64,000 nucleotides of DNA. Origin: a virus. Where the stretch lies: the UHGV virus genome UHGV-0117634; one strand, written 5' to 3'. Position 1 is the stretch's first letter. Every line of letters starts with the position of its first letter. Positions 442 to 24,757 of this stretch are shown in pieces. Both the position numbers and the translations under genes were made by a program. The notes under the pieces are model-generated. The model saw only the letters and a program-made list of their open reading frames with translations, searched no databases and had not been told where the DNA came from.

Positions 442-696
442 CTTAGATTCTCCAGTTTAGGATTGTTGGGGCTTGCTTACCCCGTTGATGCAAATACTAC
501 AAAACTGGATTCATAGAGTCAACAAAATTTTTAAAAATATTTTTGGCATGTTGTGAATGAAACGCGTGTACGCAACTAACAGAAAACAGAAAACTAGTCA
601 AGAATTATTTTTTAGTTCTCTACAAATTTTTCTCTTGACTTTTGGGAGGAAGGGGAGTAAGAGGGGATGGTGGGGCTGGCTTCCTATAGCTACCTA

Positions 697-890
697 CCTG
701 CACAAATTGAAAATGAATTTTCCCTTTGGAGTCCAACTGCATCTGCACAGATTGAAAATGAAAAAGCTCTTTGGAGTCTAGACCTGCACAAATTGAAAAT
801 GAATTTTCCCTTTGGAGTTCAGCTAAAGAAATCTGTCCAGAGTTCTATGCAATTGCACCTGCACAAATTTGAAATGAAAAAGCCCTCCTT
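697..890. repeat. array of four ~37-bp direct repeats (unit ~CTGCACAAATTGAAAATGAA[TTTTCCC/AAAAGCT]CTTTGGAGT), period ~42-44 bp, in a ~500-bp non-coding gap
   Basis: Copies read at ~697, ~741, ~783 and ~857, alternating between two variants; the last copy abuts a long-loop hairpin (GCCCTCC...GGAGGGC) downstream of the macro-domain gene. Confidence 0.7.
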
Positions 891-948
891 ACCTGAGATT
901 TTAAACTCAAACTTTGGAGGGCTTGTCTATGTCTATTTAGGTAACTTA

Positions 949-1743
949 TTAGTTACGTGCTTCAACATAGTTAACATTCTCATGTGTGATATAATCCTCT
1001 GCAAACTCTTCTGTAGCAGCACCGATATACACACTTGCATCATCACCAAATGTTACGGCTCTGTGGCAATGGCCTTGTAACGGGTGGGTAACTTGAGCGT
1101 TACTTTGATTGTACTTCTCAACCGGAGGGTAACTGGTGTGTACCTTGCCATTACGCTTCACCTTGAGGGTAACTTTATCCTTGCCTACCACGGCAACACC
1201 ATCAAAGTATTGAGGTTCACTAAAGTTTTCCCAACCAGTAACCGGATTAGTCAACTGACTGTACATCTTATCTTCATAGACATACATATAAACGTCAACA
1301 TCTTTCATGGTCTGATTGATGATAGACAGCACAGCCATGCTGTCAAGACCACCAATCCCTGCACCAATCATAGGAAGTCCAACTTTCTTAAGCTGGTTCA
1401 CTTTGCAGTAGTTATTAAGACGCTGCAAAGCTGCTTCTAAAGCATTGTATCGTGCATCTTTACCAGTGATAACCTGAGTGTAAAGGTTAGCAATTCGACC
1501 CTGCTTAAAACGTGCTACAGAGATGTTACCAAGCATAAGATGCTTAGGTTTATGACCTTCACCACCAACTGTAGCATAAACTTCAGCGTCAGTCTCATAA
1601 GCTTTTGGATAACGTTTAGCAATTGTTGCTGCAATACCTGCACCCATTAAGTTCATGCAGTTACAACCGTGACCAATGATATCAAACTTCTTATTATCAA
1701 AGTCTTTAAAGATATCACCTTTAATAATTTTTATGATACCCAT
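949..1743 (-). CDS. macro-domain protein (TARG1/DarG-like ADP-ribose-binding/hydrolase fold) fused to a ~100-aa C-terminal domain of unknown function
   Basis: N-terminal GDIF...DIIGHGCNCMNLMGAGIAATIAKRYP and later GLPMIGAGIGGLD match the two glycine-rich ADP-ribose-binding loops of macro domains; C-terminal part (HPLQGHCHRAV...) unrecognised. Confidence 0.65.
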   Translation of the reverse strand: MGIIKIIKGDIFKDFDNKKFDIIGHGCNCMNLMGAGIAATIAKRYPKAYETDAEVYATVGGEGHKPKHLMLGNISVARFKQGRIANLYTQVITGKDARYNALEAALQRLNNYCKVNQLKKVGLPMIGAGIGGLDSMAVLSIINQTMKDVDVYMYVYEDKMYSQLTNPVTGWENFSEPQYFDGVAVVGKDKVTLKVKRNGKVHTSYPPVEKYNQSNAQVTHPLQGHCHRAVTFGDDASVYIGAATEEFAEDYITHENVNYVEARN

Positions 1744-1744
1744 G

Positions 1745-1945
1745 TTACCATTCCTCCCACGATTCTTTATCTTCAGAAGGTTTTACACGTTGCCCTTCAT
1801 GGTCTACCCAGATTCCACCACAACCTTCACAGAGTGTTGGCATAGCATAACCAGCTTTGAAATCATCTTCAGTGATAAGACCTTTCAAGTCTCCTGTATC
1901 ACGTCCAAACATTTCAATAGAACAACTCTTGCAGAAATCAGCCAT
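1745..1945 (-). CDS. small Cys-rich protein, possible zinc ribbon (66 aa)
   Basis: CKSC ... CEGCGG cysteine pairs; start abuts upstream gene. Confidence 0.4.
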   Translation of the reverse strand: MADFCKSCSIEMFGRDTGDLKGLITEDDFKAGYAMPTLCEGCGGIWVDHEGQRVKPSEDKESWEEW

Positions 1946-3920: not shown

Positions 3921-4616
3921 TCAGTTTTTAACTAACATTGTTTTAATGTGTGGAAGGATTCTTTCGACCTTTGCCACGTTCTTTACTGTATCTTCTATAA
4001 AGCATACTACATCATAGTAAGGTAGAATGCAAGACTGAAGCATACGAACTTTCAAACTTTCTGCACTAATCTCATTGTCACCAAATCCACGCATAAACAG
4101 TAAGAAATCACTGTCTACATTTTCATTCAGGAAGAGATGAGTGACCACTCTCTGTGATTCACCACGAGCAGTTAAGAATCCTATATCAGCATTTTGTGAT
4201 ATCCCACACAGGATGTTAAAAACATAAGTTGGTTTAGCTCTGCGAGAGTCCACCAAGTTAGTGTACTGTGAGTAAGTACCATCATCTAACAGAGTTGCAT
4301 TAAGTTTCTTATCAAAACTTGTAAGAACACCATCAATATCTGCTAAGACCATTTTACGTTTTTCTTCCAAGTTCTTTGCAACCAAGATAAGACTATTACG
4401 ACCCACATATACAGTCTTACCTGTTAGCAAATCTTGACAAGGAATCTGTGTCTTTGTTGAATGAAAGTCTTCAAAGCTACATGCAACACATCTTGCTGTA
4501 TCTGCAAAGTCAGCTTTAGCAACGTCTGACCAGCTTGCATAACTGATATCTAAATCAAGTGGTTTGATATCATAAGCATGACACAGAACCGTATCAAATT
4601 GTTTTGATTCGCTCAT
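3921..4616 (-). CDS. HAD-like phosphatase-domain protein (putative nucleotidase), N-terminal region unknown
   Basis: LADIDGVLT matches HAD motif I (DxDG[TV]); later GFGDNE resembles motif IV. Confidence 0.35.
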   Translation of the reverse strand: MSESKQFDTVLCHAYDIKPLDLDISYASWSDVAKADFADTARCVACSFEDFHSTKTQIPCQDLLTGKTVYVGRNSLILVAKNLEEKRKMVLADIDGVLTSFDKKLNATLLDDGTYSQYTNLVDSRRAKPTYVFNILCGISQNADIGFLTARGESQRVVTHLFLNENVDSDFLLFMRGFGDNEISAESLKVRMLQSCILPYYDVVCFIEDTVKNVAKVERILPHIKTMLVKN

Positions 4617-5142
4617 ATTTTACCTTTTTAATGTTTGTTGCAAACTCACATTGAGCAAGCAATTTCATGTTATTGTACACATCTTGAGAATATTGTCTAG
4701 CCTTTGGAATCTTATATTTGTAACCAGCATTATAAGAAGCTAGGACACGCTTCATAGAGTACTTTCCATCTGGGTTACCGTGAACCTTTGTCCAGAATAG
4801 CAACTCTTTATGAGCCTCTTTTGCTGAGTAATGGAAGTCACTTACCAACTTCTTCTTAGCAACCTTTGGAGATATTTTGTTACGCTTTACAACAGTCTTC
4901 AAGTGATTCTGGAAAACACCATAATCATGAGTCCTTTTATTTTCTAACATGACACCTAATTGTGACTCTTGTAAGGCTATAGCTGCTAAAGGGATTCCCC
5001 AACCTTTTCCCATCTGTCCTTCGCCATAGTTATATGCTTTTAACATATTTACTTTCTGACTGATTGTAAGTTCTGGACAGTCAGATGCTGTAGCTAAATG
5101 TGCTGTAAAGAATAAGCACAAACCTAAAACAAATTTCTTCAT
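4594..5142 (-). CDS. signal-peptide lytic transglycosylase (candidate secreted/SAR endolysin)
   Basis: Start moved to MKKFVLGLCLFF (AGGAG RBS); signal peptide; Slt-like motifs ALQESQLG, GVFQ, SYNAGY. Confidence 0.55.
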   Translation of the reverse strand: MKKFVLGLCLFFTAHLATASDCPELTISQKVNMLKAYNYGEGQMGKGWGIPLAAIALQESQLGVMLENKRTHDYGVFQNHLKTVVKRNKISPKVAKKKLVSDFHYSAKEAHKELLFWTKVHGNPDGKYSMKRVLASYNAGYKYKIPKARQYSQDVYNNMKLLAQCEFATNIKKVKYERIKTI

Positions 5143-5206
5143 TTGCACTCCTATTTTGTTAAACATGCAGACAATTATACATCATCCTGCACATTTTTCA
5201 AATAAA

Positions 5207-5229
5207 AAAGGCTGCCGAAGCAGCCCTTT
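5207..5229 (-). terminator. rho-independent terminator after rIIB
   Basis: Plus AAAAAAGGCTGCCGAAGCAGCCCTTT; stem GGCTGC/GCAGCC with CGAA loop, flanking A/T runs. Confidence 0.55.
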
Positions 5230-5242
5230 AGGAATTTACTTA

Positions 5243-6364
5243 TTATACTTCACGTTTACGCTGAGAAATCAGTTCACCAGCAGTTCCTACAACTACATGA
5301 AGTGCTTCTGAACCATCCCACTCTTTGATGACTTCACGGCGACTATTCACAATCGCTGCAACTTCATAACGTGAAGCTCGCATTTTCATATCGTTGTAGT
5401 CAGTTGGTACTGAAACAACATCACGAGGATGAACACGAACTTTCAGGATAGTGTCGCCAGAGAAGCTAGTTACATAGTCCCAAGCCCCAACATGCAGACC
5501 CTGAGAGCATGTTACATGACGGTTATTATCAACCATCCAACGTGGCATCTCAACAATGTTACCCAAATCGTTTGGAACTTTGCAGGTACGAGAGTCAAAC
5601 AGTTTACCACTACGAGTTGTGACTTTCTTCCAACCGATGATATAACCTTCTTCATCGATTTCAACATCAAGGTGTGACACAAAGCCCCAAAGTTGTTCTA
5701 CAGAGTCTTTTGATGGGTTTTCCATCAGTTTTTCGAAGAATGCAATCAGACGGGTAAAGCCTTCATCACCTTTCTTCATCATGTCCAGAATACGGTCTAC
5801 CAGAGTTGAACGCATTTGAACAGCACCGTAGTACAGGTTATCACCTTTAATGGTCACAGCACCCTGAGTAAAGTTCTCAATGGATTTGCGAATATTCATC
5901 AGTTCAAAGGCTTTCTTGTACTCACCTGATACAACAGCCATAACAATTTCAGTGTAGTTAGGGTGAGTTGATTCAACAATCTCTGACTCTGCACCGAAAG
6001 TCATGATAACCGAGTCACCAGTAATCATGTATTCAATCTGACTATTATTCTGCATTGCTTCGTGCAGAGCATTTACAGGTTCTGCTTTGACTGCTTCTTT
6101 AACAGCTTTTGCAACAGGTTTCTGAGTAGCTACCTTTTTAGTTGCTTTAGCTTTCTTAGCACCCTTTGCAATATCCTTCAGAGTCCTCGCAGGTTTTGCT
6201 TTGGTTTTCCCTGTCAGTAAAGTTGCTTCATGACGCTCTACAGCACGACCTACAGAACGAGTTGAAGTATTGTACTTCAGAGCAATTGCAGTTTTGGTAA
6301 GTTTACCTTCTTTAACCAGTGCGTAGATTTCTGCGTCGATTTGTGCTTTAGTCTTAGTAGTCAT
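5243..6364 (-). CDS. rIIB: rIIB-like protein
   Basis: C-terminal region (RSTLVDRILD..., CSQGLHVGAW, VRVHPRDVVSVPTDYNDMKMR) matches T4 RIIB as I recall it; lies immediately downstream of rIIA as in T4. Confidence 0.85.
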   Translation of the reverse strand: MTTKTKAQIDAEIYALVKEGKLTKTAIALKYNTSTRSVGRAVERHEATLLTGKTKAKPARTLKDIAKGAKKAKATKKVATQKPVAKAVKEAVKAEPVNALHEAMQNNSQIEYMITGDSVIMTFGAESEIVESTHPNYTEIVMAVVSGEYKKAFELMNIRKSIENFTQGAVTIKGDNLYYGAVQMRSTLVDRILDMMKKGDEGFTRLIAFFEKLMENPSKDSVEQLWGFVSHLDVEIDEEGYIIGWKKVTTRSGKLFDSRTCKVPNDLGNIVEMPRWMVDNNRHVTCSQGLHVGAWDYVTSFSGDTILKVRVHPRDVVSVPTDYNDMKMRASRYEVAAIVNSRREVIKEWDGSEALHVVVGTAGELISQRKREV

Positions 6365-9640: not shown

Positions 9641-11458
9641 TTACAGTTGCTTGTCAATAACTTTTCGTACATCACGAAGGTTAACGTAACCATATGGTTG
9701 TGAGTCACAGAAGACAAGCTTCAAAGCACACTGAGGGTTGTCAATGACACCTTCAAACTCTGCAAATCCTAAGCCATCTACAGCTTCCAGCTTATCACCA
9801 TCCCACATAGGAATGACACCACCAAAAGCAGATTTCTTAAGACCACTATCTGTTTTAGGGTCTTTAGCCAGCATGATTTCTTTACCATCCATCTGTGCAA
9901 GAGTTGCTTTAACAGCAAATGCAAAGGTATCGCGAGTCAAGTACTGATAAGTGTATGAACCTACACCAAACACTACGTTAGAACTTGCAAAACCCTTATC
10001 AGCAAGACGTGACAGGATATCATTAGCTCTTTCCAGAGTGATAGAATCACCGTAGATTAATCCAATGTGCTCATCCAGTACTTTGTACCCTTTGGAGTTA
10101 ACAGTGCCACCAAAGATGTTATACAGCGTGTGGATAGCCCCATCAATCTCTGCTGTCAGCATACGCTTCACAGTAAACTGTCCAGTTTTCTGAGCGGTAA
10201 TCAGGTTGATTGTATCAGCAGATTCAAAATCTTCCTTATCAACAACCATCTCATAACCTTCAGAGATTAGCCAAGCAGAGAACCCAAAGCCAATATCAGA
10301 CATTTCACAATTCAAGATTGTGTCATGCAGATGTGTATTGTTCGGTGCAAGCTCTTTCATGTGCTTGTAGAACATTGACTTAGCAGTTTCCCACTCAATG
10401 GCTTTGTAACCAGTAACAATGTGAACAGGGTCTCCAGAGTCTGGACGGATTACCAACTTACCATCACGATTCAGAATCACATTACGTAGCTCTGGTAAAA
10501 TCTGTGTAACAGTTCTCCAGAAGTTGTAAGTATCTGATACAACACTTGCAATACCAGTTGGGTAGACTTCTGTCAGAAGACGTTGGAAAGTTTCTACCTC
10601 ACCACGCCAACGCATTGCATCTAACAAGTTGTCAGACTGTAGCAGATGCCAATCACTTACTTCTTTTGCACAACTATTCCATGAGATGTTTGCACACATC
10701 ACAGAGTGTTCAGTTGCTGGTACAGAGTTCCCGATATCACTTACAGTCATAAACTGACCATATGCACGTTTAGCTGTGTATACAGCAGGGAAGCTGTCAG
10801 TACCTTTAAAACTTGTCAGGTGACCTACTGCGTTAAACGCATCATCTGTGAATCCAGACATACCACGCATTGCAAAGTCATGACACTGCCAAGGAAGATG
10901 GAAGTCGTTATCACAGGTCAAATCTGACCACTTCTTACAAATACGTTTGTAATGTAGTGCAATAGTTGCAATTGTACAAGCTTTCCAGATTTCAGCAGAG
11001 AAAGCATCTTCGAGATAACCAGCTACCCAATGGAAGCCCTCTACAGTGTTTTTGAATATAATCATCGGGACACGCATAGGGACAATTGTACCTTCCTCTA
11101 CAGAGTAGACTTCAACAGGCAGATAACCTAAGTCATGAAGTTCTTCCCAATGTTGGCGACCAATAGCATCTGCACCAAGAACACCATTCATGATTTCCAA
11201 GATTTCGTCAATGGCTTCTTTCTTATCGCGTTCAAAGAACGTTGCATTCCAGTGGTCTACCAGATAGTCTTTTACAAAACGCTGAATACCAAATGCTACA
11301 ACACCATCAATTTCTAATGGAGAGTTAAACCATTTGTCTCCACGAGGTGTTAAGTTCAGCATAAGATACTGAGTAGCATCTGGATACTGGTAGATATGAC
11401 CAGCTTTGTAAGCATCTGCGTTAAGTCCTGCTGGTACTGCATAGATTGATTTAGTCAT
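9641..11458 (-). CDS. nadV: nicotinamide phosphoribosyltransferase-family protein (NAMPT/NadV-like; candidate Namat of an NAD+ reconstitution pathway)
   Basis: Clear NAMPT motifs: DAYKAGHIYQYP, FAMRGMSGF...SFKGTDS, SVPATEHS, VVSDTYNFW, IRPDSGDP, IYGDS, FGVGSY...LTRD. Confidence 0.9.
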   Translation of the reverse strand: MTKSIYAVPAGLNADAYKAGHIYQYPDATQYLMLNLTPRGDKWFNSPLEIDGVVAFGIQRFVKDYLVDHWNATFFERDKKEAIDEILEIMNGVLGADAIGRQHWEELHDLGYLPVEVYSVEEGTIVPMRVPMIIFKNTVEGFHWVAGYLEDAFSAEIWKACTIATIALHYKRICKKWSDLTCDNDFHLPWQCHDFAMRGMSGFTDDAFNAVGHLTSFKGTDSFPAVYTAKRAYGQFMTVSDIGNSVPATEHSVMCANISWNSCAKEVSDWHLLQSDNLLDAMRWRGEVETFQRLLTEVYPTGIASVVSDTYNFWRTVTQILPELRNVILNRDGKLVIRPDSGDPVHIVTGYKAIEWETAKSMFYKHMKELAPNNTHLHDTILNCEMSDIGFGFSAWLISEGYEMVVDKEDFESADTINLITAQKTGQFTVKRMLTAEIDGAIHTLYNIFGGTVNSKGYKVLDEHIGLIYGDSITLERANDILSRLADKGFASSNVVFGVGSYTYQYLTRDTFAFAVKATLAQMDGKEIMLAKDPKTDSGLKKSAFGGVIPMWDGDKLEAVDGLGFAEFEGVIDNPQCALKLVFCDSQPYGYVNLRDVRKVIDKQL

Positions 11459-11478
11459 CTTTTTATCTCTCTCAAAGT

Positions 11479-11494
11479 GGGGCTTTTCAGCCCC
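11479..11494 (-). promoter_or_regulatory. second copy of GGGGCTTTTCAGCCCC hairpin (intergenic, between PRPP-synthetase-family and NAMPT-family genes)
   Basis: Identical 16-mer to the one in the rIIB promoter spacer; here no good -35/-10 flank it. Confidence 0.4.
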
Positions 11495-11502
11495 TAAAGT
11501 TT

Positions 11503-12402
11503 TTATTCAATATTTACTACAGTCACTTGTGAGAAGTGTGAAAGTCCACGCCATTTAGCACTTCCTAATGAATCTGTAGTGTAGATATGGTCAATACCGT
11601 TGTCAAGAAGATTTTCAACACCTTTAGAGAAAATCCCATGAGTGACATATAGTTCTACATGTTCTGCACCAGCTTCACGAAGATACTTTGCAGCCTCAAT
11701 GAAGGTACGACCACCGTCACAGATATCATCCAGAATCATGACAGTCTTACCTGTTAAGTCTACATCATCAAGGATTCGCATACCAGTTATTTCACCAGTT
11801 TTTAGGTTGCGTACCTTAGCCATTGTGATATATGGCTTTTCAACATCCTTAGCAGCTTCTTCTGTCTTCTTAGCTGCACCTGCATCTGGAGCCACTAAGT
11901 AATCAATTCGTGGGTCACTTGCAAAGTGTGATGCAACGGCTTTTTGTGGAACATTATAGAAGCACTTGAACAAATTTTCTGCTACGTTGCTGTGAACATC
12001 CAGAGCACATACAGAATCAAATTCCATAGCATTTACCAGATTGGCAAACACTTTCAATGCTGCTGCATCTCCTTTAAACATGTGTCGGTCATATCTTGCA
12101 TTTGGTAAGAAACCAAATAACACTGACTTCATTGTTGTTTGTTGAGGTATAAGGTTGTCAATTGCTTCTTTAGCCAAAGCTAATGCAAATAAGGTGTCTT
12201 TGTCATAACCTTGTACCGTGAAGATTACGTTTTCAATTTTTCCAGCAGCATGTTTAGCAAAATCTACTAAGTCTTCTGAAAAGTTACCACCAATTTCCCC
12301 TGAAGGGAACTGAATAATGTTGAAGGTCTCTTGGTGTGAACCTTTTGAATTTGAATTAAGCAGAACTTGAATAGTAGTTTCCATAGTATTTCTCTCAGTC
12401 AA
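11503..12402 (-). CDS. ribose-phosphate pyrophosphokinase (PRPP synthetase)-family protein (candidate Adps)
   Basis: PRTase-type binding loop VMILDDICDGGRTF and overall Prs-like layout; immediately upstream of the NAMPT-family gene. Confidence 0.8.
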   Translation of the reverse strand: MTERNTMETTIQVLLNSNSKGSHQETFNIIQFPSGEIGGNFSEDLVDFAKHAAGKIENVIFTVQGYDKDTLFALALAKEAIDNLIPQQTTMKSVLFGFLPNARYDRHMFKGDAAALKVFANLVNAMEFDSVCALDVHSNVAENLFKCFYNVPQKAVASHFASDPRIDYLVAPDAGAAKKTEEAAKDVEKPYITMAKVRNLKTGEITGMRILDDVDLTGKTVMILDDICDGGRTFIEAAKYLREAGAEHVELYVTHGIFSKGVENLLDNGIDHIYTTDSLGSAKWRGLSHFSQVTVVNIE

Positions 12403-22985: not shown

Positions 22986-23304
22986 GGTATCTATCCAAGT
23001 TTCGTTTCAAGTAAATCCACTGGTCATCTGTGCGCTCTACACCCATGAACAGGGGGGCTACAACAACTTTACCAAAAGTATTTCTGTGCTGGCAAATCTC
23101 GTAAGAGTACGGTTTATCAATATTTAAGCCATACTTATACAACACTGCTGCTAATACTTGTTCATTATCCAGAATCGTTTCTGGCTTCTCTCCGTACTTG
23201 TCTAACAGTGAATCATTCATAAACACTGTCATAGAGAGGTTGTAGTTGGAGAAGTGGCTTTTTGCCACCACTTCTTCACCTTTATTAATGTTCTGTGAAT
23301 CCAT
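22978..23304 (-). CDS. hypothetical protein (108 aa)
   Basis: ORF-track ORF. Confidence 0.4.
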   Translation of the reverse strand: MDSQNINKGEEVVAKSHFSNYNLSMTVFMNDSLLDKYGEKPETILDNEQVLAAVLYKYGLNIDKPYSYEICQHRNTFGKVVVAPLFMGVERTDDQWIYLKRNLDRYHV

Positions 23305-24040
23305 TATAACCGACTCCTTTCAACCACTGCTTGAGGTTGATTGCATCATAATTCAATTTCGGATATGAGGTTACATGGAACTTCTCACCATCATAGTACA
23401 CAATATCCGCAAGCCATAATCCATTCTCACGGCAGAAATCTTTATCTGCTTTTGAAGAGATTGGTTCAACTTTAGAAAAGTTTTTAATGCCAAGACTACC
23501 AAGACTTCCAATCAGTCCTTGGCAGATAACGCATGTGTCAGATGTTACCACAAATAATTCTTTTGCGTCAACTTCTGCAACAAAACTTTCAAGTTGAACT
23601 TTTGGAAGATTAGACTGTTTCATAACCTTACCATCAGACTTGCGAATAATTGCAAACCACTCTTTGCCTTCGATGATTGATTGGCGCAGGTAGCATTCAT
23701 CACCAGTACGTTTCTCAATATCAAACATTCGCTGTACAGCTTCTTGATAGTCATCTGTGTATTTGAGGTTGTTGTTTTCACAAACAGCCTTGATAGCACC
23801 ATCATGGTCATGCTGTGTTAGGAAAATTAAACCGTCAAGTACATACTGCAAATCAGCTTGAGCATCAAGAGTTTCAATGGGGTCTTTGGCTTCTACTGCT
23901 GCGACTAACTCTCTAGCTTCTTCAAGCATGCACAGAGATTGACTTTTCAGTGATTCCCAATACTCTGTGCTGTATGGCTCTTTTGGGTTATTGCCACAAC
24001 GTAGATTCCAATTTCTTACGGATTCTCTGGAATTAAACAT
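23285..24040 (-). CDS. hypothetical protein; N-terminal region weakly MazG-like (all-alpha NTP pyrophosphohydrolase)
   Basis: EEARELV...ETLDAQADLQYVLDG fits the ExxE...ExxD spacing of MazG/HisE-type pyrophosphatases; tentative. Confidence 0.3.
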   Translation of the reverse strand: MFNSRESVRNWNLRCGNNPKEPYSTEYWESLKSQSLCMLEEARELVAAVEAKDPIETLDAQADLQYVLDGLIFLTQHDHDGAIKAVCENNNLKYTDDYQEAVQRMFDIEKRTGDECYLRQSIIEGKEWFAIIRKSDGKVMKQSNLPKVQLESFVAEVDAKELFVVTSDTCVICQGLIGSLGSLGIKNFSKVEPISSKADKDFCRENGLWLADIVYYDGEKFHVTSYPKLNYDAINLKQWLKGVGYNGFTEH

Positions 24041-24270
24041 TAAGCCTCCTTATCTTCAAACAACTTTTGTTGAGACTCAATATATTCCATTCGTTCTTTG
24101 AGTTCAACACGTTTGCTTAACAGATGTTGAATTTGTGATTCCAGAGCATCCATCTCAGCTTCTGTAGCTGACTTAGCTTTACTGATAGTTTCCTTCAGTG
24201 CTGCTACGCCACTCTGGATTTTAGAAACATGGTCATTTTTGATTTTATTAAACATTTTAAACTCTCTCAT
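24040..24270 (-). CDS. small coiled-coil protein (76 aa)
   Basis: Heptad-like charged sequence. Confidence 0.4.
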   Translation of the reverse strand: MREFKMFNKIKNDHVSKIQSGVAALKETISKAKSATEAEMDALESQIQHLLSKRVELKERMEYIESQQKLFEDKEA

Positions 24271-24757
24271 TAAGTTTCATGATTTTAGTGATTCTCTTCT
24301 CAGCTTCATCATAAGTCTCTTTTGTAAGAAACTTGATTGCTGCAATGTTTGCATTGTAGAAGAGTCGAAGCTTAGAGTCAATCCTTTTTGTCATGACGTC
24401 AAACTTATGCTGTAGGTTAGCTTCGCCATAAACTAAGCCACCTCGCGTATAGTAAGTCTGGATGATGTAGAAGTCAAACTCTTTTTCACCAAAAGATTCA
24501 ATATCCTTCTTAATGTATTCAGAAGATGTTTGATAAGTCATCCAATCACTTTCTTTTGTCACGACTTTACGTCTGGTCTTTCCAGCAACCTTTCTCTTAG
24601 TGACATTATTAAATTGTTTCTTTCCAATATAATATTGCCCAGTTTTCTTACAGTATACTAAATAGACAAAACCAAAATAGTTAGCGGGGTCAATTTCCCC
24701 GCACAGTGAAATCCAATGTCCATAAACAGGGCAATTTCCAAATCCTTTAATCTTCAT
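24257..24757 (-). CDS. GIY-YIG domain protein (candidate homing endonuclease)
   Basis: FGFVYLVYCKKTGQYYIGKK matches the GIY-(x10)-YIG signature; basic linker follows. Confidence 0.45.
   Translation of the reverse strand: MKIKGFGNCPVYGHWISLCGEIDPANYFGFVYLVYCKKTGQYYIGKKQFNNVTKRKVAGKTRRKVVTKESDWMTYQTSSEYIKKDIESFGEKEFDFYIIQTYYTRGGLVYGEANLQHKFDVMTKRIDSKLRLFYNANIAAIKFLTKETYDEAEKRITKIMKLNERV

What the first reader, a model, noticed from the sequence alone, without database searches (positions are those of the whole stretch)
949..1743. Phage macro-domain (TARG1/DarG-like) protein fused to an unknown C-terminal domain
The N-terminal ~160 aa carry both glycine-rich ADP-ribose-binding loops of a macro domain (GHGCNCMNLMGAGIAATIA; GLPMIGAGIGG), in the TARG1/DarG-like flavour. 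Such domains remove ADP-ribose from proteins or, in DarG, from ADP-ribosylated thymidine in DNA. A phage copy could reverse host ADP-ribosylation-based immunity (for example DarT) or process ADP-ribose-derived signals. The ~100-aa C-terminal domain is unrecognised, and the same genome carries a NAMPT/Prs pair that also handles ADP-ribose chemistry.
Basis: partly seen in the sequence, partly recalled or inferred. Interest (0 to 1): 0.7.

Follow-up and report, generated by a model that had tools for sequence, protein, structure and literature searches.

The report
Phage macro-domain enzyme with orphan tail domain
This gene of a Felix O1-like phage encodes an ADP-ribose-processing "macro" enzyme whose closest phage relatives were recently shown to defeat bacterial immunity. 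It is fused to a fast-evolving extra domain found only in this phage group, so it is a real but only moderately novel variant of a known kind.

Summary
ORF 949-1743 (minus strand, 264 aa) is a real gene in a Mooglevirus-type phage, 98% identical in DNA to Citrobacter phage Moogle. Databases already annotate it as "phosphatase / macro domain protein".

Residues 1-165 form a macro domain. Its nearest solved folds are TARG1, Poa1p and DarG. The TARG1/DarG catalytic Lys and Asp are replaced by an invariant Gln90 and by Gly131. The Poa1p/Adpp His (H25) and the macro Asn (N28) are invariant.

The domain belongs to a phage Poa1p-like macro clade with two recently characterised members:
- T4 Tk.4 (AdfM), which counters DarTG2.
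- Vibrio phage Gary Adpp, an ADPR-1''-phosphate phosphatase that feeds the NARP1 NAD+ pathway against aRES.

The window protein is about equally related to both (32-39% identity).

The NAMPT/Prs pair in the window is NARP1, 76-79% identical to the validated Bas63 genes. It lies 8 kb away, not in the same operon.

Residues ~166-264 form a beta-rich domain found only fused to this macro domain, and only in Ounavirinae. It has no structural relative. It is under purifying selection but evolves about five times faster than the macro half.

My best reading is an anti-defence hydrolase acting at C1'' of ADP-ribose, with DarT2-modified DNA as the likeliest substrate and ADPR-1''P a close second. No activity was tested here. 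I class it as a new variant of a known kind, of moderate interest.

The parts
949..1743 (-). Complete CDS, 264 aa plus stop: macro domain fused to the Ounavirinae-specific C-terminal domain. Orthologue of Moogle gp116 and Bas63 bas63_0095.
   Evidence: ORF list. PHROG 335, E=3.9e-106. Moogle annotation. 64% identity to bas63_0095.
1249..1743 (-). Macro domain, aa 1-165, of the Poa1p/TARG1/DarG structural class.
   Evidence: Pfam Macro, E=7e-8. DarG model matched over aa 4-163 only. Foldseek to TARG1/Poa1p/DarG. AF2 secondary structure.
1618..1674 (-). First Gly-rich loop, GHGCNCMNLMGAGIAATIA (aa 24-42). It contains the invariant H25 (Poa1p H23, Adpp H24) and N28 (PhiKZ AdfM N23).
   Evidence: Alignments. 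The H24A mutant is listed in the Adpp preprint's supplement. The N23A mutant of PhiKZ AdfM is described in PMC13309987.
1474..1476 (-). Codon for Gln90 in the invariant NLYTQ motif. It occupies the position of the catalytic Lys of TARG1 (K84) and DarG (K80).
   Evidence: Profile alignment to TARG1. MAFFT alignment. Codon read from the sequence. Equivalence with SCO6735 Q85 taken from PMC9967889.
1348..1380 (-). Second Gly-rich, diphosphate-binding loop, GLPMIGAGIGG (aa 122-132). G131 sits where TARG1 has D125.
952..1248 (-). Conserved linker (N173-x-S-x-P177-x-x-F-D-G182) plus a beta-rich C-terminal domain, with about six strands and a terminal helix. It is an orphan domain restricted to Ounavirinae macro proteins.
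1753..1757 (-). Shine-Dalgarno GGAGG, 9 nt upstream of the ATG.
   Evidence: Read directly from the sequence. A ribosome-binding site is annotated at the same place in Moogle.
1745..1945 (-). Upstream 66-aa CxxC...CxxC ORF (phrog_2210). Its stop codon ends 1 nt before the macro ATG, so it is probably co-translated. This is context and a possible partner.
866..938 (-). Terminator-like hairpin (GCCCTCC, 27-nt loop, GGAGGGC, then a T-run) just after the stop codon. The macro gene appears to close its transcription unit.
   Evidence: Inverted repeat I1. Minus-strand sequence. The simple terminator scan did not call it because of the long loop.
9641..11458 (-). Namat, the NAMPT-like enzyme of NARP1. 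It is a possible downstream consumer of the ADPR released; this is context.
   Evidence: Pfam NAPRTase/NAMPT_N. 76% identical to Bas63 gene 80, validated in bioRxiv 10.1101/2024.02.11.579819.
11503..12402 (-). Adps, the Prs-like enzyme of NARP1. The true start is probably the ATG at 12384. This is context.
   Evidence: Pfam Pribosyltran/Pribosyl_synth. 79% identical to Bas63 gene 79, with the alignment starting at residue 7.

Best explanation
The gene encodes an early-expressed anti-defence enzyme. Its macro domain binds ADP-ribose and hydrolyses whatever is attached to the C1'' carbon of the distal ribose.

The active site lacks the TARG1/DarG lysine. It has Gln90 instead, as in SCO6735, together with the invariant H25 and N28.

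The most likely physiological substrate is ADP-ribose placed on thymidine in single-stranded phage DNA by DarT2-type toxins. The protein would then act as an orphan, DarG-analogous 'antitoxin', like its homologue T4 Tk.4/AdfM.

The fast-evolving C-terminal domain is rigidly packed on the macro domain. I infer that it is a targeting or partner-binding module for a macromolecular substrate or for a host defence protein.

The free ADPR released could then be recycled into NAD+ by the phage's own NARP1 (Adps/Namat).

Shown here: the gene, the fold, the motif content, the family relationships, the restricted distribution and selection pattern of the C-terminal domain, and the presence of NARP1.

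Inferred: catalytic activity, substrate identity, the role of the C-terminal domain, and any coupling to NARP1.
For: - The macro fold is modelled with high confidence and its nearest solved folds are TARG1, Poa1p and DarG.
- T4 Tk.4 is 39% identical over 135 aa and shares the exact HGCNC and NLYTQ motifs and a short post-Gln loop. A tk.4 knockout sensitises T4 to DarTG2.
- Gln at the catalytic-Lys position is compatible with cleaving thymidine-linked ADPr. SCO6735 Q85 is essential for that activity (PMC9967889), and Q90 aligns with TARG1 K84.
- N28 corresponds to N23 of the biochemically proven DNA de-ADP-ribosylase PhiKZ AdfM.
- Most phages carrying this macro clade lack NARP1. There are 2676 records, dominated by T4-like phages.
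- Here the gene lies 15 genes from NARP1 and ends its own transcription unit. This argues for a NARP1-independent primary role.
- A two-domain layout, macro plus a second domain, parallels DarG. The C-terminal domain evolves about 5 times faster than the macro half at equal dS while keeping omega below 1, as expected for an interface with a host or defence partner.
- The gene sits in the early block with rIIA/rIIB.
Against: - No activity or phenotype is known for any Ounavirinae member (searches found no literature).
- The T4 evidence is genetic only and comes from one preprint.
- The protein is equally similar to the proven ADPR-1''P phosphatase Adpp (32% over 165 aa). The NJ tree does not resolve which it is closer to.
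- The DarG HMM hit does not discriminate. Adpp and Poa1p also hit it at 30-47 bits, whereas the DarG-like PhiKZ AdfM scores 138.
- The DarG catalytic Lys is absent, and the W83 base-stacking position has no aromatic counterpart: the residues after Q90 are V-I-T.
- The C-terminal domain has no similarity to the DarG C-terminal domain. It is neutral to slightly acidic, so it is not an obvious DNA binder.
Confidence: 0.4

Rival explanations
1. Adpp-type ADPR-1''-phosphate phosphatase. The macro domain dephosphorylates the ADPR-1''P made by RES-domain NAD+ phosphorylases (aRES). This yields ADPR, which the phage's own NARP1 (Adps and Namat) rebuilds into NAD+. The arrangement would be an unlinked version of the 'NARP1-AP' pathway, with the C-terminal domain as an accessory.
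For: - Gary Adpp is a proven ADPR-1''P phosphatase of the same clade. Its near-identical orthologue in Vibrio phage Wyman lies between the Prs and NAPRTase genes and is 32% identical to the window protein over 165 aa.
- The His targeted by the Adpp H24A mutation is invariant here, as H25.
- The window carries NARP1 that is 76-79% identical to the validated Bas63 genes.
- Every locus inspected with the macro-C-terminal-domain fusion has Namat 9-10 kb upstream on the same strand: the window, Bas63, L006 and L008.
- aRES homologues occur in Citrobacter, Salmonella and E. coli (supplementary table S2).
- The long-standing annotation is 'phosphatase'.
Against: - The gene is not within two genes of NARP1, which is the criterion the authors used, and Ounavirinae phages are absent from their table S1.
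- Proven and candidate Adpp proteins are single-domain, 150-170 aa. They mostly have HQ(C/A)NC and YGQ motifs with a longer post-Gln loop, whereas the window protein resembles T4 in these features.
- A small-molecule phosphatase has no obvious need for a fast-evolving extra domain.
- The co-occurrence with NARP1 is confounded by common descent within a single phage lineage.
Confidence: 0.3
2. A hydrolase for another ADP-ribose conjugate. Candidates are ADP-ribosylated host or phage proteins, ADP-ribosylated RNA, O-acetyl-ADPR, or ADPR-derived immune signals such as the Thoeris cyclic ADPR isomers. The C-terminal domain would confer that specificity.
For: - Macro domains of this class act on many substituents at the 1'' or 2'' position (PMC9503650). 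TARG1 and SCO6735 also de-ADP-ribosylate proteins.
- The extra domain and the aliphatic rather than aromatic residue after Gln90 set this subgroup apart from the single-domain relatives.
- A different phage protein family, RyDEP, is known to convert cADPR signals to ADPR for NARP1. This shows that the logic exists.
Against: No homologue of this clade has been shown to do any of these things. The weak ThsA_Macro Pfam hit is insignificant (E=0.52). Nothing in the neighbourhood points to a specific alternative substrate.
Confidence: 0.15
3. A non-catalytic ADP-ribose binder. The protein would act as a sponge or sensor for ADPR-containing molecules, or as a stoichiometric inhibitor of a defence protein through its C-terminal domain, with the macro domain serving only as a ligand-binding module.
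For: Both catalytic residues of TARG1 are missing. Non-enzymatic macro domains exist. DarG with a mutated catalytic Lys still counteracts DarT through a second mechanism.
Against: H25, N28 and Q90 are invariant across the family. They match residues whose mutation reduces or abolishes function in Adpp (H24A), PhiKZ AdfM (N23A, reduced activity) and SCO6735 (Q85). The macro half is under strong purifying selection, omega about 0.07-0.26.
Confidence: 0.07
4. A housekeeping role in RNA repair. The protein would remove ADPR-1''P produced by a Tpt1/KptA-type 2'-phosphotransferase during tRNA repair, alongside the nearby polynucleotide kinase. This is the classical Poa1p role.
For: The domain is Poa1p-like and retains H25. 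A Pnk gene lies 2.2 kb upstream at 3921-4616.
Against: No Tpt1/KptA, 2H phosphoesterase or RNA ligase is annotated in the first 45 kb or the 77.9-88 kb region of the Moogle record that were inspected. T4-type Pnkp repair does not generate 2'-phosphates; this last point is from general knowledge.
Confidence: 0.05

Closest known systems
T4 Tk.4 = AdfM (anti-DarT factor Macrodomain; bioRxiv 10.1101/2025.11.20.689424)
   Same: Same phage Poa1p-like macro clade. 39% identity over 135 aa. Identical HGCNC and NLYTQ motifs, a similar PxIGAGIG loop, and a short loop after the Gln. Both are early phage genes.
   Different: Tk.4 is a 155-aa single domain, while the window protein carries an extra ~100-aa C-terminal domain. 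T4 has no NARP1. The residue after the Gln is aromatic in Tk.4 and aliphatic here. The anti-DarTG2 phenotype is shown only for T4.
Adpp of Vibrio phage Gary (NARP1-AP pathway; bioRxiv 10.64898/2026.01.28.702374)
   Same: Same clade, 32-34% identity. Conserved catalytic His (H24 there, H25 here). Gln at the Lys position. The genome also encodes Adps and Namat.
   Different: Adpp is a 158-aa single domain encoded between Adps and Namat. Here the gene lies 15 genes away in another transcription unit. Adpp has HQCNC and VYGQ motifs and a longer post-Gln loop.
DarG antitoxin macro domain and PhiKZ gp104 AdfM (PMC13309987)
   Same: Same ALC1-like structural class of macro fold. Conserved Asn (N28 here, N23 in gp104). 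Two-domain logic of a macro domain plus a second domain in DarG. Plausibly the same substrate, thymidine-linked ADPr on ssDNA.
   Different: Only 21% identity to gp104. 55.7 bits against the DarG model, compared with 137.8 for gp104 and a cut-off of 250. The catalytic Lys is replaced by Gln. The C-terminal domain is unrelated to DarG's DarT-binding domain. There is no adjacent darT gene.
Streptomyces coelicolor SCO6735 (PDB 5E3B)
   Same: An ALC1-like macro domain with Gln instead of the catalytic Lys that still cleaves thymidine-linked ADPr-DNA. It is detected by the family profile at E=7e-7.
   Different: A bacterial, single-domain protein that also removes protein ADPr. The residue-by-residue alignment was not inspected here; the Gln equivalence is transitive through TARG1 K84.
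Yeast Poa1p (PDB 6LFQ) and human TARG1 (PDB 4J5S)
   Same: These are the best sequence and fold matches among solved structures. The HxCNC motif and its His are shared with Poa1p, and the overall fold is shared with TARG1.
   Different: TARG1's K84/D125 dyad is absent. Poa1p S30 and F152 are not conserved (L32 and G131 here). Both are eukaryotic single-domain proteins with housekeeping roles.

Membership tests
Macro domain superfamily (Pfam PF01661) | Profile match above the curated gathering score | tested here: met
   32.8 bits against a cut-off of 22, E=7.2e-8, aa 25-141.
Macro domain superfamily (Pfam PF01661) | Alpha/beta macro fold with the two Gly-rich ADP-ribose-binding loops | tested here: met
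   AF2 pLDDT 87. Foldseek to TARG1, Poa1p and DarG at E=5e-10 to 1e-8, with target TM 0.74-0.85. The loops lie at aa 33-36 and 127-132.
TARG1/DarG-type (ALC1-like) lysine-dependent hydrolases | Catalytic Lys (TARG1 K84, DarG K80) | tested here: not met
   Gln90 occupies this position and is invariant in all 21 family members.
TARG1/DarG-type (ALC1-like) lysine-dependent hydrolases | Resolving Asp (TARG1 D125) | tested here: not met
   Gly131 aligns with D125.
DarG antitoxin (NCBIfam NF048014 / PADLOC DarG) | Full-length model score above the cut-off, including the C-terminal DarT-binding domain | tested here: not met
   55.7 bits against a cut-off of 250. Only model positions 1-153 of 338 are matched. 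PhiKZ AdfM scores 137.8.
DarG antitoxin (NCBIfam NF048014 / PADLOC DarG) | Encoded next to a darT toxin gene | tested here: not met
   The neighbours are small phage ORFs of unknown function.
Phage Poa1p-like macro clade (T4 Tk.4/AdfM and Adpp) | Significant homology with shared Hx(C/A)NC and Y(T/G)Q motifs | tested here: met
   39% identity, E=1e-19 to Tk.4. 32% identity, E=9e-20 to Wyman Adpp. Motifs are aligned.
Adpp / NARP1-AP pathway | Catalytic His (Adpp H24, Poa1p H23) | tested here: met
   H25 is invariant. The H24A mutant is listed in the preprint's supplement.
Adpp / NARP1-AP pathway | Gene located inside or within two genes of the Adps-Namat operon | tested here: not met
   The gene is about 8 kb and about 15 genes away, after rIIA, rIIB and Pnk. 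The same is true in L006 and L008.
Adpp / NARP1-AP pathway | ADPR-1''P to ADPR phosphatase activity | not testable with these tools
   Needs an enzyme assay with LC-MS.
AdfM (anti-DarTG2 factor) | Loss of the gene sensitises the phage to DarTG2, and the enzyme removes ADPr from thymidine in ssDNA | not testable with these tools
   Needs plaque assays and an oligonucleotide de-ADP-ribosylation assay.
SCO6735-like Gln-dependent ALC1-like hydrolases | Gln at the catalytic-Lys position | tested here: met
   Q90 aligns with TARG1 K84. The review PMC9967889 places SCO6735 Q85 at the position equivalent to K84/K80. The equivalence is transitive; the direct alignment was not viewed.
PQQ/BamB-type beta-propeller repeats (considered for the C-terminal domain) | Significant repeat-profile match and a propeller-blade fold | tested here: inconclusive

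The most novel reading that the evidence does not exclude
The Ounavirinae-specific C-terminal domain is an independently evolved counterpart of DarG's second domain. It would be a fast-evolving module that directly binds and blocks a host ADP-ribose-handling defence enzyme such as DarT2 or aRES, or that docks the enzyme onto its macromolecular substrate. The protein would then be a two-pronged orphan antitoxin. One prong reverses the modification enzymatically, with the released ADPR recycled into NAD+ by the phage's NARP1. The other prong inhibits the toxin stoichiometrically.
Probability: 0.15. Interest if true: 0.65.

Novelty: new variant of a known kind. Interest (0 to 1): 0.4.

Why it matters
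Felix O1-like phages are common, used therapeutically and used for typing. One of them, Bas63, is the phage in which the NARP1 NAD+ reconstitution pathway was discovered.

Members of this macro clade have recently been linked to two different counter-defences, against DarTG2 and against aRES. The Ounavirinae version has not been tested, and it is the only one carrying an extra, rapidly evolving domain.

Working out its substrate would show whether one enzyme family covers both defences. It would also show whether ADP-ribose stripped from DNA or produced as ADPR-1''P is funnelled into NAD+ resynthesis. Finally, it would show whether the orphan domain is a new toxin-binding or targeting module.

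The experiments are straightforward in Bas63. The finding does not overturn anything. It fills in one lineage of a picture that is already emerging.

Tried and rejected
- **Phylogeny.** I built a neighbour-joining tree of 35 macro domains with 300 bootstraps to decide between the Tk.4 and Adpp types. The fused proteins are monophyletic (80%), but deeper nodes are unresolved, so it gave no decision. An earlier run timed out.
- **DarG HMM hit.** I rejected it as evidence for DarG-type function. The proven Adpp, Poa1p and Tk.4 all hit the same model at 30-47 bits.
- **Stand-alone C-terminal domain.** Protein P0036 (114 aa) looked like an independent copy. It is a frameshifted copy of the fusion on a 1.4-kb contig.
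- **Beta-propeller origin of the C-terminal domain.** There are recurrent weak PQQ/BamB hits. There is no fold support and no detectable internal repeat (hhalign E=0.38), so I left this as inconclusive.
- **DNA binding by the C-terminal domain.** The net charge ranges from -4 to +6 across homologues and is mostly near zero or negative, so there is no support.
- **tRNA-repair by-product role.** No Tpt1/KptA, 2H or RNA ligase is annotated in the parts of the Moogle record inspected.
- **Literature on the Ounavirinae macro protein.** Searches for Bas63 with DarTG, and for Felixounavirus with macro domain, found nothing. Two further searches were uninformative.
- **RNA families.** Rfam found nothing credible in the repeat-rich intergenic region.
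Full report
**What is there.**

The window comes from a Felix O1-like myovirus of the subfamily Ounavirinae. Its first 6 kb are 97.9% identical to Citrobacter phage Moogle.

The ORF at 949-1743 on the minus strand has an ATG start, encodes 264 aa and ends in TAA. A GGAGG Shine-Dalgarno sequence sits 9 nt upstream. The ORF is the orthologue of Moogle gp116, annotated 'phosphatase, FelixO1-like, contains Macro domain'.

The gene is the last in a run of small early genes that follows NARP1, rIIA, rIIB and Pnk. A terminator-like hairpin follows it, and then a promoter-like site for the next genes.

**The N-terminal half.**

- Pfam Macro matches aa 25-141 at E=7.2e-8, above the gathering score.
- PHROG 335 ('phosphatase') matches the full length at E=3.9e-106.
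- The AlphaFold2 model built on 21 homologues is confident, with pLDDT 87.4 and pTM 0.86.
- Its best Foldseek matches among solved structures are human TARG1, yeast Poa1p and the DarG macro domains of Thermus aquaticus and Mycobacterium tuberculosis. E-values are 5e-10 to 1e-8, and target-normalised TM reaches 0.85.

So the 'TARG1/DarG-like flavour' is right at the level of fold class. At the level of catalytic residues it is not.

- The family profile aligns the invariant NLYTQ motif with TARG1 LITKK. Gln90 therefore sits where TARG1 has K84 and DarG has K80.
- Gly131 sits where TARG1 has D125.
- The DarG models of NCBIfam and PADLOC match only the macro part. The score is 55.7 bits against a cut-off of 250.
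- That hit does not discriminate. PhiKZ AdfM, which is truly DarG-like, scores 137.8. Adpp, Poa1p and T4 Tk.4 score 30-47.
- The invariant residues include H25, N28, Q90 and the two Gly loops. H25 corresponds to Poa1p H23 and Adpp H24. N28 corresponds to N23 of PhiKZ AdfM.
- A Gln at the catalytic-Lys position is known from Streptomyces SCO6735. There Q85 is essential and the enzyme cleaves thymidine-linked ADP-ribose on DNA (PMC9967889).

**Relatives with known function.**

The macro half belongs to a large phage clade. A tblastn search found 2676 phage records, mostly T4-like, Klebsiella, Pseudomonas and Vibrio phages. Two members have been characterised very recently.

- T4 Tk.4 is 39% identical over 135 aa. 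It was the single hit in a transposon screen for genes needed on DarTG2 hosts and was named AdfM. The mechanism was inferred, not shown (bioRxiv 10.1101/2025.11.20.689424).
- Adpp of Vibrio phage Gary is encoded between Adps and Namat. Purified Adpp converts ADPR-1''-phosphate, the product of the aRES NAD+ phosphorylase, to ADPR. This lets NARP1 rebuild NAD+ (bioRxiv 10.64898/2026.01.28.702374).
- The near-identical orthologue in Vibrio phage Wyman lies between the Prs and NAPRTase genes. It is 32% identical to the window protein over 165 aa.
- A second protein also called AdfM, PhiKZ gp104, is a biochemically proven DNA de-ADP-ribosylase. It is a Lys-containing DarG-type domain and only 21% identical to the window protein.

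A neighbour-joining tree places the fused proteins in one clade with 80% bootstrap support. It cannot say whether they are closer to Tk.4 or to Adpp. At motif level the window protein resembles Tk.4, with HGCNC, LYTQ and a short post-Gln loop. The Vibrio and Pseudomonas Adpp group instead has HQ(C/A)NC, YGQ and a longer loop.

**The NAMPT/Prs pair.**

ORFs 9641-11458 and 11503-12402 carry NAPRTase/NAMPT_N and Prs-type domains. They are 76% and 79% identical to Bas63 genes 80 and 79. Those are the genes in which NARP1 (Adps plus Namat) was discovered and validated (bioRxiv 10.1101/2024.02.11.579819).

Bas63 also carries the orthologue of the gene under study, bas63_0095. It is 261 aa long and 64% identical. 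It lies 15 genes downstream of NARP1 on the same strand.

The same order, Namat then rIIA, rIIB, Pnk and the fused macro gene, holds in two much more divergent metagenomic phage contigs. The macro gene therefore always co-occurs with NARP1 in this lineage but is never in its operon.

**The C-terminal half.**

- Residues ~166-264 have no significant Pfam match.
- In the full-length model they form a conserved linker followed by about six beta-strands and a terminal helix. The linker motif is N173-x-S-x-P177-x-x-F-D-G182, and its first part is a short helix.
- The linker is confidently modelled only in the presence of the macro domain: block pLDDT 86-92, against 56-62 when the C-terminal part is modelled alone. 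Together with pTM 0.86, this suggests a rigid two-domain unit.
- An exhaustive profile search of 1.8 billion representative proteins finds the domain only fused to this macro domain. The single apparent stand-alone copy is a frameshifted fusion.
- In the phage collection the domain occurs in 243 records. All have genomes of Ounavirinae type, that is Felixounavirus, Mooglevirus and Suspvirus.
- Weak but recurrent sequence similarity to PQQ/BamB-type beta-propeller blades appears in three searches. The predicted fold does not support it, and no internal repeat was detected. I leave this point open.
- The domain is near-neutral to acidic. It shows no similarity to DarG's DarT-binding domain.
- It is under purifying selection but evolves much faster than the macro half. 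Comparing the window with Shigella phage Silverhawkium, which is in the same genus, at equal dS of about 0.7, the macro half has dN=0.048 (omega 0.07, 91% identity). The C-terminal half has dN=0.241 (omega 0.34, 62% identity).

**How it most likely works.**

The fold, ligand-binding loops, conserved candidate catalytic residues, family membership and genomic setting are shown. Everything about activity is inferred from homologues.

The chemistry common to both characterised relatives is hydrolysis of the substituent on C1'' of ADP-ribose. In one case the substituent is thymine N3 in DNA. In the other it is phosphate. I am about 85% confident that the protein is an active enzyme of this kind with a role in counter-defence.

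For the main substrate I favour DarT2-modified DNA, at 0.40, for four reasons:
- Most members of the clade live in phages without NARP1.
- The gene is not part of the NARP1 operon.
- The motifs are closest to those of Tk.4.
- A fast-evolving additional domain fits a macromolecular target or a defence-protein partner better than a small-molecule phosphatase. DarG has the same two-domain logic.

The Adpp-type role, at 0.30, is nearly as good. It is supported by the conserved His and the invariable presence of NARP1. The two roles are not mutually exclusive, because both release the ADPR that Adps uses. Other ADPr conjugates (0.15), a non-catalytic binder (0.07) and RNA-repair housekeeping (0.05) are less likely.

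**Comparison and novelty.**

The protein is a member of the macro superfamily and of the phage Poa1p-like clade. It is not a DarG, because the score, the catalytic Lys, the C-terminal domain and the gene context all fail. It also lacks the TARG1 dyad.

It works like AdfM or Adpp but differs from both in carrying an orphan, lineage-restricted domain. The domain call is already in public annotation, and the functional idea already has precedent in the 2025-2026 literature.

What is new is the fused variant and its unexplained domain. I found no paper on it. I rate it as a new variant of a known kind, with interest 0.4.

Noticed in passing
window 696-899, with a hairpin at 866-938: There are four 43-nt direct repeats (ACCTGCACAAATTGAAAATGAA...) spaced 41-75 nt apart in the ~500-bp intergenic region just after the macro gene. 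None of 100 shuffles reached 4 matches. The last copy overlaps the 3' arm and T-run of a terminator-like hairpin, so the repeats look like duplicated terminator halves. Moogle has about 2.2 kb of extra genes at this spot, so it is an indel hot spot.
   Followed up: partly
window 1745-1945 (minus strand): A 66-aa ORF with two CxxC pairs (phrog_2210, unknown function) has a stop codon ending 1 nt before the macro ATG. It is conserved directly upstream of the macro gene in Bas63, Silverhawkium, SUSP1, PC79-13 and contig L004. Unrelated genes replace it in the divergent loci L006 and L008. It could be a zinc-ribbon partner or just a neighbour.
   Followed up: partly
window 11459-11502, compared with Moogle record 5031-5522: Moogle has an HNH homing-endonuclease gene inserted between Namat and Adps. 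The window has only a 44-nt gap there. In metagenomic locus L006 an HNH/AP2 gene (9694-10023) overlaps the start of the macro gene. Homing endonucleases therefore move around this early region.
   Followed up: no
window 952-1248 compared with 1249-1743: The C-terminal domain accumulates amino-acid changes about five times faster than the macro domain at the same synonymous divergence. Within the genus Mooglevirus it drops to 62% identity while the macro half stays at 91%. This suggests diversifying pressure or domain swapping.
   Followed up: partly
window aa 91 (codon 1471-1473) and the alignment: The residue right after the conserved Gln is aliphatic (V, L or I) in all nine fused proteins examined. 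It is aromatic or His in most single-domain relatives, including T4 Tk.4 and the Adpp group. The C-terminal domain may pack on, or functionally replace, this substrate-facing loop. The comparison is confounded by shared ancestry.
   Followed up: no
window 23285-24040 and 24257-24757 (minus strand): By position these ORFs appear to correspond to Moogle genes annotated 'MazG-like pyrophosphatase' and 'NAD synthetase' (166 aa). They would be further nucleotide and NAD-related genes in the same genome that might belong to the same metabolic counter-defence theme.
   Followed up: no
window 11503-12402 (minus strand): The mechanical ORF for Adps starts at a TTG. Alignment with Bas63 Adps begins at residue 7 (Met), so the real start is probably the ATG at 12384.
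   Followed up: partly
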